A stretch of DNA of 45,236 bases, taken from sequence record OR061068; one strand, written 5' to 3'. Position 1 is the stretch's first letter. The number at the start of each line of letters is the position of its first letter. The position numbers and the translations under genes were made by a program. Under the pieces are notes generated by a model. The model made no database searches, had not been told where the DNA came from, and saw only the letters and a program-made list of their open reading frames with translations. This DNA comes from Escherichia phage CR01. Below are positions 34,436 through 37,681 of the stretch, in pieces.

Positions 34436-34636
34436 ATGGGTAAGTGGATTAAGTGCAGTGAGCAGATGCCCGCTCCTTTCTCTCATGTACTTGTGACTGA
34501 TGGGGGAGAGGTTGAGATTAAATGGTTCGATGATGATTCGGATGAGTGGGATAGTTGGGATGAATTCAACTCTGTCATAGACAACGAGGATATAACGCAC
34601 TGGAGGAAATTGCCTAAACCGCCGAAACTGGTGTAA
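34436..34636 (+). CDS. DUF551-like small protein
   Basis: 66 aa; N-terminal GKWIKCSEQMP and C-terminal ITHWRKLPKPP match the DUF551 pattern common in enterobacterial prophages. Confidence 0.5.
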   Translation: MGKWIKCSEQMPAPFSHVLVTDGGEVEIKWFDDDSDEWDSWDEFNSVIDNEDITHWRKLPKPPKLV

Positions 34637-35649: not shown

Positions 35650-35855
35650 TTGTGGTACAGAGATATTCTAAGTATGGGTCTGACAACCATTTCATTGACC
35701 GCCACGGGAAGTGGGTTAAGTTTGAGGACTACCAGAATCTTGACCTAAAGCTGTTGGAAGTTGAAGCCGAGTTACAGAAATACAAAGACCAGTTCCCGGA
35801 TTACGTCGAGTGCGCGAACTGTGGGTCAGTTACACATGTGGAAGGGGTGGAGTGA
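35646..35855 (+). CDS. hypothetical protein (69 aa) with C-terminal CxxC
   Basis: Track ORF. Confidence 0.3.
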   Translation: MIVVQRYSKYGSDNHFIDRHGKWVKFEDYQNLDLKLLEVEAELQKYKDQFPDYVECANCGSVTHVEGVE

Positions 35856-36148
35856 TGTCTCTTGCAACTGACATCCTGAAACGAAGCGGCCTTGCGCCGC
35901 TGTCGCCGAGAGCAAACACACGAATATACAAGCGCTGCCGTAATGCGCTGTACCCTGAGATTCAGGCCAGGCGCAAAGCTATCCGAGCCTGCGGATTCCA
36001 GAACGGGAAGGCCGTGAATCTCGGTGAGTTTAAAACACAGGAACGCGCCGCTATCGCTAATCGGCTATTTAATTACTGGAAATCGCTGGGGTACGATGAT
36101 ATTCCAACGAAACCGCAGAGACGACAATACATCTGGAGACACAAATGA
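35855..36148 (+). CDS. hypothetical basic protein (97 aa)
   Basis: ATG 35855 overlapping the upstream stop (TGATG); Arg/Lys-rich. Confidence 0.35.
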   Translation: MSLATDILKRSGLAPLSPRANTRIYKRCRNALYPEIQARRKAIRACGFQNGKAVNLGEFKTQERAAIANRLFNYWKSLGYDDIPTKPQRRQYIWRHK

Positions 36149-36585
36149 CGACTATCGCGTTTGACGGAAAGACAATGGCCTGTGACACACGTGTTGTGTG
36201 CGGGAGTAACTGCTACAACACAGACACAAAGATATACGAGAATGATACTTATGTTATAGGGGTAGCGGGTGATGCTGGAGTTGGCACTATGCTTATCGAC
36301 TGCCCGTATATCCTCCAGGCCAGACCATACGAATTCGATTTCGAAGCCCTGGTGTTCGTGAAAGACACAGAAAAGGTGTACAAAGTCGCGTTCTATAAAT
36401 CATGGGATTGTGCACTTAGTTCAGTTATTCCGGTTGCTGATGTGTACGCCGCCGTGGGGTCTGGCTCGCCATATGCATTAGCCGCTATGGAGTGCGAATA
36501 TTCGGCGCATGGCGGCGTAGCCGTTGCATCGAAGTTCGACACTAACACCGGCGGCAAGATTATTACCAAACAACTATTAGGATAA
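36145..36585 (+). CDS. HslV/proteasome beta-subunit-like Ntn-hydrolase
   Basis: 146 aa; starts MTTIAFDG (Thr directly after Met), VIGVAGDAGVG and AAVGSGSPYALAAMEC align with the E. coli HslV motifs TTIVSV, VIAGFAGG and IAIGSGGPYAQAAARA as recalled. Confidence 0.45.
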   Translation: MTTIAFDGKTMACDTRVVCGSNCYNTDTKIYENDTYVIGVAGDAGVGTMLIDCPYILQARPYEFDFEALVFVKDTEKVYKVAFYKSWDCALSSVIPVADVYAAVGSGSPYALAAMECEYSAHGGVAVASKFDTNTGGKIITKQLLG

Positions 36586-36644
36586 TTCCTACCCGTGGTA
36601 TCCTCCAGTTACTGCATACTTAATACGCACCTGGAGGATTCATC

Positions 36645-36953
36645 TTGGATAAATTTACTGAAACAGTGACGGGGTGGCTTCTCGCTGCCGCGCTAGCCGG
36701 AGGGGTCATCGGACTACGACAACATAAGTCCGCTATTTCCGGCCCTATCGACGGCTTCTGCTTTATTGCAACCGGCTTCACTTGCGCAGTATTTGGCGCG
36801 CCTCTCGCAGCTCAATGGTTTGGAATCACGGGCGACCGTGAAATCGCCGGGTTGGGCTTCATTATCGCCATTCTCTGGATGCCTATCTATTCCCGTCTCT
36901 CTGGTATCGTCGCCGGAGAATACATCGCACGTCGAGGAGGCACAGATGAATGA
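36645..36953 (+). CDS. putative holin
   Basis: 102 aa with multiple TM segments, directly upstream of the endolysin. Confidence 0.5.
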   Translation: MDKFTETVTGWLLAAALAGGVIGLRQHKSAISGPIDGFCFIATGFTCAVFGAPLAAQWFGITGDREIAGLGFIIAILWMPIYSRLSGIVAGEYIARRGGTDE

Positions 36954-37218
36954 ACTATTCTGGTTCGGCGGTATGCTGGCAATCGGGGGCACATCGCTGT
37001 TTAATGTGTACCACCCCAGCGTGGACGACGGGCTGTTTGGTCGGGTGCTCTATATCCTGACCGCTATCGTCTGCGTCGCCGGATGCATCCACCTGTTACA
37101 GGGCAGCATGTCCCCGACGTTGCCGGAGACGTTAATCACATTAGTTGCGCTGCGCCAGATTCGTCAGGCGTGGCTGTCATACGGAGGGCATAAGCGTGTC
37201 TCGAAACATTTCAGATAA
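36950..37218 (+). CDS. second small membrane protein (holin/antiholin-like)
   Basis: ATG 36950 overlapping the holin stop (ATGAATGA); two hydrophobic segments. Confidence 0.4.
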
Positions 37219-37681
37219 TGGGCTGCATTTCACCGCCGCGTGGGAGGATTTCCGCGGAACTGCGTATCGTGCTACGCCTGACGAGAAGTACCTTACTATT
37301 GGCTATGGTCACTACGGGCCTGACGTAACACCTGGTAAGACCATCACCCCCGGACAAGGCCTCCTGTTACTGAATCGCGATATGGCTAAGGCCGTAGCTG
37401 CGGTTGACGCAGCAGCACACCATTCACTGACACAGGCTCAGTTTGACGCGGTGTGTGACCTGGTGTATAACGCCGGAGCAGGTGTGATTGCCGCTACTAC
37501 AGGCACAGGTAAGGCGCTGCGTTCCGGTGACATCGCTACGCTGCGTGCTAAGCTGGCGCTGTTCATTAACCAGAACGGCAAACCATTACTTGGTCTGCGC
37601 CGCCGTACCGCCGGACGTCTGGCGCTGTTCGACGGTAAACCGTGGCAAGAGGCTGAGGCTATTGGGAGGGCTGTTAAATGA
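37196..37681 (+). CDS. endolysin, phage lysozyme (GH24, T4/P22 lysozyme-like)
   Basis: GTG 37196 preceded by ribosome-binding site GGAGGG; WEDFRGTAY...TIGYGHYG and QFDAVCDLVYNAG resemble P22/lambda-type lysozymes as recalled. Confidence 0.7.
   Translation: MSRNISDNGLHFTAAWEDFRGTAYRATPDEKYLTIGYGHYGPDVTPGKTITPGQGLLLLNRDMAKAVAAVDAAAHHSLTQAQFDAVCDLVYNAGAGVIAATTGTGKALRSGDIATLRAKLALFINQNGKPLLGLRRRTAGRLALFDGKPWQEAEAIGRAVK

What the first reader, a model, noticed from the sequence alone, without database searches (positions are those of the whole stretch)
36145..36585. HslV / proteasome-beta-like Ntn-hydrolase in the early region, next to the lysis genes
The 146-aa product begins MTTIAFDG, so a Thr becomes the N-terminal nucleophile after Met removal, and carries AAVGSGSPYALAAMEC in the position of the HslV GSGG-PYA signature. 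It is shorter than HslV (about 175 aa), so it may lack the surface that docks the HslU ATPase. A phage peptidase of this fold sitting between early genes and the holin, rather than in the head module, is unexpected. It could be a host-takeover or anti-defence protease, or a decoy that poisons host HslUV.
Basis: partly seen in the sequence, partly recalled or inferred. Interest (0 to 1): 0.6.

Follow-up and report, generated by a model that had tools for sequence, protein, structure and literature searches.

The report
Phage mini-proteasome homologue (PPH family)
This Kagunavirus gene encodes a stripped-down relative of the proteasome beta subunit and HslV with an intact active site; the family (PPH) was described in 2021 and is routinely annotated in phage genomes, but what it cuts is still unknown.

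Summary
The ORF at 36145-36585 (+) is real. Its start is pinned, so Thr becomes N-terminal once Met is removed. The window is a Kagunavirus (Guernseyvirinae) genome.

It is not HslV. It scores 13 bits against an NCBIfam cutoff of 158. It lacks helix H2 and the Arg86/Arg89/Lys90 pore cluster, and no HslU-like gene lies nearby.

[quoted passage not shown] PHROG 1040 and GenBank already label it "peptidase HslV family".

Its place beside the holin is a transcription-unit boundary. It is the last gene of a block of small genes, and 34 PPH lineages share no partner gene.

So the fold call is right, the novelty is low, and the function is untested.

The parts
36145..36585 (+). CDS of the PPH-type proteasome-beta/HslV homologue (146 aa plus stop)
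   Evidence: dN/dS 0.05-0.22 against relatives
36135..36138 (+). Shine-Dalgarno GGAG, 6 nt before the ATG. The ATG overlaps the upstream gene's TGA (ATGA, 36145-36148).
   Evidence: read from the sequence
36148..36150 (+). Codon for Thr2, which becomes Thr1 (the nucleophile) after Met removal
   Evidence: Thr in 117 of 119 sequences (118 close homologues plus the query). All 117 rows of alignment A2 have it, and 140 of the 146 candidate representatives listed from the unbiased search passed the filter that required Thr at position 2. Aligned to Thr1 of proteasome beta5.
36184..36186 (+). Asp14, equivalent to proteasome/HslV Asp17
36229..36231 (+). Lys29, equivalent to Lys33
   Evidence: invariant; aligned
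36268..36270 (+). Gly42, equivalent to the oxyanion-hole Gly47
36274..36330 (+). Residues 44-62: a 5-residue remnant of helix H1 plus a loop that replaces helix H2. This is the most variable stretch among Kagunavirus copies.
   Evidence: AF2 secondary structure; about 28-residue deletion relative to E. coli HslV; pN/pS 0.41
36457..36465 (+). Gly105-Ser106-Gly107, equivalent to the Ser129-Gly130 loop of the active site
36538..36549 (+). Asp132 to Thr135, equivalent to Asp166 and Ser169
35855..36148 (+). Context: upstream 97-aa gene of unknown function (phrog_9632), translationally coupled to PPH
36600..36639 (+). Context: hairpin (AUCCUCCAG...CUGGAGGAU) between PPH and the lysis cassette. It sequesters the SD of the next gene.
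   Evidence: z -3.3. A canonical terminator lies at the same place in Jerseyvirus.
36645..37681 (+). Context: lysis cassette with two holin-like genes (36645-36953 and 36946-37218) and a lysozyme-type endolysin (37196-37681)

Best explanation
[quoted passage not shown] PPH is a minimal proteasome-beta/HslV-type N-terminal-nucleophile hydrolase of about 140 aa.

Shown here:
- The fold.
- The N-terminal position of Thr.
- The full catalytic set: Thr1, Asp17, Lys33, Gly47, Ser129, Asp166 and Ser169 equivalents.
- Purifying selection on the gene.
- Loss of helix H2 and of the HslU-responsive basic pore cluster.
- No conserved partner gene and no unfoldase gene.

Inferred:
- Host methionine aminopeptidase exposes Thr1, as it does for E. 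coli HslV, which also starts MTTI.
- The protein is an active, ATPase-independent threonine peptidase made from the operon of small genes that precedes the lysis cassette.
- Because it cannot unfold proteins, it probably cuts peptides or exposed, disordered segments of a limited set of host or phage proteins. This would be an accessory host-takeover or counter-defence role, not bulk degradation and not capsid maturation.
- The retained H3/H4 helices could support ring-to-ring contacts, so a BPH-like stand-alone ring is the default guess. The assembly state was not tested.
For: - **Catalytic residues.** Invariant or nearly invariant across 141 distant representatives and in 117-119 of 119 sequences (118 close homologues plus the query). 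They align to the proteasome residues.
- **Selection.** dN/dS 0.05-0.22 overall; 0.01 for codons 1-15.
- **Missing H2.**, matching the published description of PPH.
- **Phage and prophage contexts.** PPH sits among small or nin-type genes, often just before the lysis or terminase genes.
- **No shared neighbour.** No neighbour family is shared beyond 5 of 34 PPH lineages, and that one is endolysin.
- **No unfoldase.** No AAA+ unfoldase is annotated in a related Kagunavirus genome.
Against: - No biochemical or genetic data exist for any PPH in the literature searched.
- BPH, the closest stand-alone relative, was inert in standard peptidase assays, so activity cannot be assumed.
- Isolated proteasome subunits are inactive unless assembled (statement in PMC8665760), and assembly could not be modelled here.
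- Expression timing is inferred from gene order only. The one Kagunavirus transcriptome paper does not report this gene.
- The HslU C-terminal tails bind grooves formed by a beta-hairpin and the neighbouring subunit body. Loss of H2 alone therefore does not prove that HslU cannot dock.
Confidence: 0.6

Rival explanations
1. PPH is an alternative proteolytic core that hijacks the host HslU (ClpY) ATPase. This would redirect ATP-dependent degradation, or poison host HslUV by forming mixed or competing complexes.
For: - Same MTTI N-terminus and same catalytic set as E. coli HslV.
- Hosts of these phages encode HslUV (general knowledge).
Against: - Only about 23% identity to E. coli HslV.
- Helix H2 and the Arg86/Arg89/Lys90 cluster, which respond to HslU and are needed for HslV activity, are deleted.
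- NCBIfam HslV score is 13 bits against a cutoff of 157.75.
- BPH, a similar HslV descendant, does not bind HslU.
Confidence: 0.1
2. PPH is a monomeric, sequence-specific peptidase or transpeptidase that works like archaeal connectase, not a ring-shaped compartment.
For: - Connectase is the one characterised family member that lacks the H1/H2 helix pair and is monomeric.
- Here H2 is gone and H1 is cut to 5 residues.
- The segment replacing them is the most variable part of the protein.
Against: - The two-helix S3/S4 insertion that gives connectase its specificity is absent. The model shows a plain beta-hairpin at residues 16-26.
- H3/H4, the ring-ring contact helices, are retained and conserved.
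Confidence: 0.12
3. PPH is an Ntn amidohydrolase acting on a non-protein substrate, such as a small-molecule signal or a cell-wall-related amide, and not a peptidase.
For: - Endolysin is the only neighbour that recurs across lineages.
Against: - The complete proteasome-type residue set is present: Asp17, Lys33, Ser129, Asp166 and Ser169 equivalents.
- The top structural hits are all T1-family peptidases.
- Endolysin adjacency occurs in only 5 of 34 lineages and is explained by gene order.
- There is no signal peptide, and the protein starts directly with the catalytic Thr.
Confidence: 0.06
4. PPH is a virion-maturation (prohead or scaffold) protease.
For: A related Kagunavirus annotation lists a scaffold and a major head protein but no prohead protease.
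Against: - The gene lies far from the head module, in the block of small genes before lysis.
- In other phages it sits in nin-like or early clusters, for example Xp10 50L and prophages.
- Known prohead proteases have other folds (general knowledge).
- Phages with a separate scaffold often need no protease.
Confidence: 0.04
5. PPH is a catalytically dead structural protein or decoy.
For: BPH was inert in standard assays.
Against: - All catalytic positions are invariant or nearly so across hundreds of 50%-identity clusters, and codons 1-15 have pN/pS 0.01.
- A decoy would not need them.
Confidence: 0.03

Closest known systems
[quoted passage not shown]
   Same: About 140 residues; found in tailed phages and prophages; no propeptide; Thr1/Asp17/Lys33/Gly47 present; helix H2 missing; nearest relatives are BPH and HslV.
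   Different: - The Guernseyvirinae copies carry small insertions in the S7-S8 region (residues 75, 78-80, 87-89).
- They lack the family's conserved Trp at position 53.
- H1 is reduced to 5 residues.
- Direct comparison with the authors' reference set was not possible.
HslV (ClpQ), the peptidase of the HslUV ATP-dependent protease
   Different: - 30 residues shorter.
- No H2 and no Arg86/Arg89/Lys90 pore cluster.
- Shorter H3-H4 loop.
- No adjacent hslU.
- Fails the NCBIfam equivalog cutoffs.
BPH (Betaproteobacteria proteasome homologue; PDB 5OVS/5OVT)
   Different: BPH is about 185-200 aa, keeps H1 and H2, and has a long acidic pore loop. It is chromosomal and linked to stress genes. PPH deletes that whole region and is phage-borne.
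Connectase (MJ0548; PDB 6ZW0)
   Same: A proteasome-beta relative with a reduced first helix pair. It shows that such a reduced form can be monomeric and sequence-specific.

Membership tests
Proteasome-beta / T1 Ntn-hydrolase superfamily (Pfam PF00227) | Nucleophilic Thr (or Ser) at the mature N-terminus | tested here: met
   The ATG at 36145 is the first start after the in-frame stop at 36097-36099. Thr is residue 2, and a start codon precedes Thr-Thr in all 88 loci. Met removal itself is inferred.
Proteasome-beta / T1 Ntn-hydrolase superfamily (Pfam PF00227) | Asp17, Lys33, Gly47, Ser129, Asp166 and Ser169 equivalents | tested here: met
   D14, K29, G42, S106, D132 and T135 are conserved and aligned to the proteasome/HslV residues.
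Proteasome-beta / T1 Ntn-hydrolase superfamily (Pfam PF00227) | Alpha-beta-beta-alpha sandwich fold | tested here: met
Proteasome-beta / T1 Ntn-hydrolase superfamily (Pfam PF00227) | Score at or above the Pfam gathering threshold | tested here: met
   23.0 bits against 22.4, which is marginal. The family profile against PDB beta5 gives E about 1e-15.
HslV (NCBIfam TIGR03692 / NF003964) | Score at or above the equivalog cutoff | tested here: not met
   13.1 bits against 157.75, and 12.4 against 137.
HslV (NCBIfam TIGR03692 / NF003964) | Helices H1 and H2 with the Arg86/Arg89/Lys90 pore cluster that responds to HslU | tested here: not met
   About 28 residues are deleted in the hhalign alignment, and the model has no H2. 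The role of the cluster is as described in PMC5777263.
HslV (NCBIfam TIGR03692 / NF003964) | Partner HslU ATPase gene in the same operon or genome | tested here: not met
   No AAA+ unfoldase is annotated in a related Kagunavirus, and none appears beside PPH in the surveyed loci.
HslV (NCBIfam TIGR03692 / NF003964) | Dodecameric double hexamer | not testable with these tools
   Only single-chain prediction is available.
PPH (Fuchs et al. 2021) | About 140 residues, no propeptide, no C-terminal S12/H5 | tested here: met
   146 aa; the family median is 146 aa; the model ends after the last strand.
PPH (Fuchs et al. 2021) | Encoded by tailed phages or prophages | tested here: met
   The window is a Kagunavirus. 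322-489 phage records carry homologues. The bacterial copies examined lie in prophages.
PPH (Fuchs et al. 2021) | Lacks helix H2 while keeping H1, H3 and H4 | tested here: met
   Model helices are 46-50 (short H1), 108-116 (H3) and 121-131 (H4), with no H2. This matches the description.
PPH (Fuchs et al. 2021) | Clusters with the authors' PPH sequence set (representative WP_042125023.1) | not tested
   The reference sequence and alignments are not held. Assignment rests on the features above and on PHROG 1040.
BPH | Long acidic pore loop after H2 | tested here: not met
   The region is deleted; the feature is described.
Connectase | Two-helix insertion between S3 and S4 covering the active site | tested here: not met

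The most novel reading that the evidence does not exclude
PPH is an ATPase-independent, substrate-specific threonine peptidase that many unrelated phages make before lysis to cut one or a few host proteins. The target could be a defence or stress-response factor. PPH might act as a monomer or as an unusual small oligomer made possible by loss of the H1/H2 layer. That would make it the first functionally defined viral proteasome homologue and a new class of phage counter-defence enzyme.
Probability: 0.25. Interest if true: 0.7.

Novelty: already known. Interest (0 to 1): 0.3.

Why it matters
For this window, the result matters little. The gene belongs to a family that was named and described bioinformatically in 2021, it has its own PHROG, and near-identical copies are already labelled in GenBank.

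The wider family remains a real open question. It forms hundreds of 50%-identity clusters, occurs in at least 489 sequenced phages (including Xp10, Jersey-like phages, PAK_P1-like phages and SPN3US-like jumbo phages), keeps a perfect proteasome active site, and has no known substrate, assembly state or phenotype. A Kagunavirus or Jerseyvirus infecting E. coli or Salmonella would be a convenient system for settling what a viral "mini-proteasome" does.

Tried and rejected
- **Conserved partner gene.** I called ORFs in 87 loci, clustered 648 neighbours within ±4 genes, and grouped PPH into 34 lineages. Only endolysin recurred (5 lineages), followed by terminase- and portal-like proteins, so no partner was found.
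- **Neighbouring window genes.** Pfam, PHROG and PADLOC scans gave no informative hits.
- **Erwinia phage RAY gp116.** It is described as 'HslVU protease family' and localises to the phage nucleus, so I checked whether it is a PPH. It is a 569-aa HslU-like ATPase and is not relevant.
- **Expression timing.** The Kagunavirus K1B4 transcriptome paper does not report this gene.
- **Literature.** Searches for experimental work on PPH or HslV-like phage proteins found only the 2021 bioinformatic paper.
- **PPH reference sequence.** I could not retrieve it from the paper's supplement. Ramachandran et al. 2002 on HslV-HslU contacts is not held.
- **Variable presence among Kagunaviruses.** I suspected this from differing BLAST counts. 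The discrepancy arises because many records match only the lysis genes in the 3-kb query. NTEC3 and Bas73 both carry the gene.
- **Positive selection.** The variable segment 44-62 has pN/pS 0.41, which indicates relaxed constraint and not adaptive change.

Full report
**1. What is in the sequence**

Its start is unambiguous:
- The nearest in-frame stop upstream is TGA at 36097-36099, and no ATG, GTG or TTG follows it before the ATG at 36145.
- GGAG lies 6 nt upstream of that ATG.
- The ATG overlaps the stop codon of the preceding gene (ATGA), which is typical of translational coupling.

Residue 2 is Thr. E. coli HslV has the same first four residues, MTTI (sequence checked against PDB entries), and exposes its Thr by Met removal. 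The same processing is inferred here.

**2. Where the window comes from**

A 3-kb stretch around the gene matches Escherichia phages of the genus Kagunavirus (Guernseyvirinae) at 88-96% nucleotide identity. In those records the orthologous gene is labelled 'protease', 'ATP-dependent protease', 'peptidase HslV family' or 'hypothetical protein'.

In a fully annotated relative (Bas73) the layout is:
- A leftward replication operon.
- A divergent control region.
- A rightward run of about a dozen small genes of unknown function, ending with this gene.
- Two holin genes, a small ORF and an endolysin, then more small genes, then terminase and the structural genes.

Jerseyviruses of Salmonella carry a 59%-identical copy in the same place. 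There it is followed by an annotated canonical terminator before the lysis genes.

In the window, the 59-nt spacer after the gene folds into a hairpin at 36600-36608/36631-36639. The fold energy is -23.8 kcal/mol with a z-score of -3.3. The hairpin buries the GGAGG of the TTG-start holin-like gene. The neighbourhood with the holin is therefore a transcription- or translation-unit boundary, not evidence of a shared function. 'Early' expression is inferred from position only; I found no transcript data for this gene.

**3. What the protein is**

Sequence-level hits:
- Single-sequence Pfam is marginal: Proteasome PF00227 at 23.0 bits against a gathering score of 22.4.
- PHROG 1040 'peptidase HslV family' matches at E 1.8e-34.
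- NCBIfam HslV equivalog models are missed by a wide margin: 13 bits against cutoffs of 137-158.

An exhaustive HMMER search of 1.84 billion representatives found 911 clusters (at 50% identity) with E ≤ 1e-3. Nearly all are 135-155 aa, align from residue 1, and begin MTTIA[FWY]DG.

Across 141 such representatives, the following positions (window numbering) are invariant or at least 90% conserved: T2, T3, A5, A12, D14, K29, G42, A103, G105, S106, G107, A111, A114, A124, A128, D132 and G136. T135 is Thr or Ser in 130 of 141.

A profile of the family matches proteasome beta5/beta5i at E about 1e-15, and matches HslV and BPH at 1e-13 to 1e-11. These residues align as follows:

| Window residue | Proteasome/HslV equivalent |
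|---|---|
| T2 | Thr1 |
| D14 | Asp17 |
| K29 | Lys33 |
| G42 | Gly47 |
| S106 | Ser129 |
| D132 | Asp166 |
| T135 | Ser169 |

Among 118 close homologues from metagenomes plus the query (119 sequences), the same residues are kept in 117-119.

Pairwise dN/dS against Kagunavirus and Jerseyvirus copies is 0.05-0.22. Codons 1-15 have pN/pS 0.01. This is a functional protein under selection for an intact active site.

**4. Structure**

AlphaFold2, run with a 117-sequence alignment, gives pLDDT 95.1 and pTM 0.90.

Structural matches:
- Foldseek ranks BPH first.
- 38 viral structure clusters in BFVD share the fold.

The model has the two central sheets and helices H3 (108-116) and H4 (121-131). On the other face it has only a 5-residue helix (46-50) followed by a loop.

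In the hhalign alignment to E. coli HslV (probability 97.4%), about 28 HslV residues have no counterpart. They correspond to helix H2 and the Arg86/Arg89/Lys90 cluster. The H3-H4 loop is also about 9 residues shorter. The BPH paper states that mutations in that basic cluster severely reduce HslV activity and that HslU binding remodels the region.

It is not proven, because the grooves that hold the HslU C-termini are formed by a beta-hairpin and the neighbouring subunit. No multimer modelling was possible.

**5. Comparison with what is known**

Fuchs, Alva and Lupas (Bioinformatics 2021, PMC8665760) described 22 new proteasome homologues, among them PPH. [quoted passage not shown] They place PPH next to BPH and HslV and note that PPH and RPC lack helix H2.

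Every one of these features was found here independently, so I assign the gene to PPH. The one test I could not run is direct clustering with the authors' reference sequences. No experimental study of PPH turned up in the library searched.

**6. Context across phages**

Homologues occur in 322-489 phage records. Examples:
- Jerseyviruses.
- Xanthomonas phage Xp10, gene 50L. It lies in the leftward cluster five genes upstream of the RNA-polymerase inhibitor 45L. From my memory of the Xp10 transcription literature, this cluster is early.
- PAK_P1-like Pseudomonas phages.
- Klebsiella and Vibrio siphoviruses.
- SPN3US-like jumbo phages, where it is gene 1.
- Ruegeria phage RpAliso, where it lies between polynucleotide kinase/RNA ligase genes and NAD-salvage genes.
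- Prophages, where it sits in the nin-like region between the replication genes and terminase.

In 87 loci grouped into 34 PPH lineages, no neighbour family is shared by more than 5 lineages. The one that is shared by 5 is endolysin, which follows from gene order. No HslU-like gene accompanies PPH in any examined locus.

**7. Most likely mechanism and rivals**

The best-supported reading is a catalytically competent, ATPase-independent threonine peptidase used as an accessory gene before lysis. Lacking an unfoldase, it would be limited to peptides or exposed segments of particular proteins.

Mapping the alignment to beta5 puts V40 (family F/I/G) at proteasome position 45, which shapes the S1 pocket. 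Taken with general knowledge of proteasome pockets, this suggests a preference for hydrophobic P1 residues.

Rivals, in decreasing order of my estimate:
- A connectase-like monomeric specific peptidase or ligase (0.12).
- Use or poisoning of host HslU (0.10).
- A non-peptide amidase (0.06).
- A capsid-maturation protease (0.04).
- An inactive decoy (0.03).

The decoy idea is the least compatible with the data, because the catalytic residues are the most conserved part of the protein.

**8. Verdict**

However, the gene is an ordinary member of an already named and routinely annotated family, and its position is conserved and explained by operon structure. The interest lies only in the unanswered question of what PPH proteins do. 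This window does not answer that question, though it offers a tractable system for asking it.

Noticed in passing
window 36600-36647: A hairpin (AUCCUCCAG...CUGGAGGAU; MFE of the 86-nt stretch -23.8 kcal/mol, z -3.3) pairs the GGAGG Shine-Dalgarno (36633-36637) of the TTG-start holin-like gene at 36645. In Jerseyvirus Shelanagig, the same spacer holds a canonical intrinsic terminator. This may provide translational or transcriptional gating of the lysis cassette.
   Followed up: partly
window 36538-36585: The last 15 codons of the PPH gene have much lower synonymous divergence among Kagunaviruses (pS 0.14) than the rest of the gene (0.44-0.74). Promoter-like hexamers lie at 36536-36563. This could be an embedded regulatory element for the lysis genes or a recombination boundary.
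   Followed up: no
window 36274-36330 (residues 44-62): The segment that replaces helices H1/H2 is the most variable part of the protein among close relatives (pN/pS 0.41, against 0.01 for residues 1-15). This indicates relaxed constraint, not clear positive selection.
   Followed up: yes
L008 6001-6855 (P0346); also P0326: A 284-285-aa PPH with a C-terminal extension of about 140 residues that has no Pfam match. It lies in a 73-kb phage contig next to PhoH and ribonucleotide reductase genes. [quoted passage not shown]
   Followed up: no
L033 3560-3958 and L065 5001-5405 (both from IMGVR_UViG_3300047469_000099): One 42-kb viral contig carries two divergent PPH copies near its two ends.
   Followed up: no
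L003 (Ruegeria phage RpAliso) 1438-8860: PPH ('proteasome subunit beta') lies directly after polynucleotide kinase and RNA ligase genes and before NAD-salvage genes (NMN adenylyltransferase/ADP-ribose pyrophosphatase and nicotinamide phosphoribosyltransferase). This neighbourhood is typical of repair and counter-defence functions.
   Followed up: no
L090 1353-3062 (Erwinia phage RAY gp116): This jumbo phage encodes a 569-aa HslU-like ATPase reported to localise to the phage nucleus. Related SPN3US-like jumbo phages carry a PPH as gene 1. Whether the two ever work together was not examined.
   Followed up: no
Escherichia phage M01 OR061069.1 42468-42909 (hit H66): This is the closest nucleotide match to the gene (98.0%), but it spans 442 nt for a 441-nt query, and it was not among the 9 sampled rows at or above 59% identity in the spread listing of protein-level hits. 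This suggests a 1-nt indel or frameshift in that record's copy.
   Followed up: no
window 34436-34636: A small DUF551 protein (Pfam E 1e-12) lies in the same rightward block of small genes. The other genes between 34772 and 36148 have no informative family hits.
   Followed up: partly
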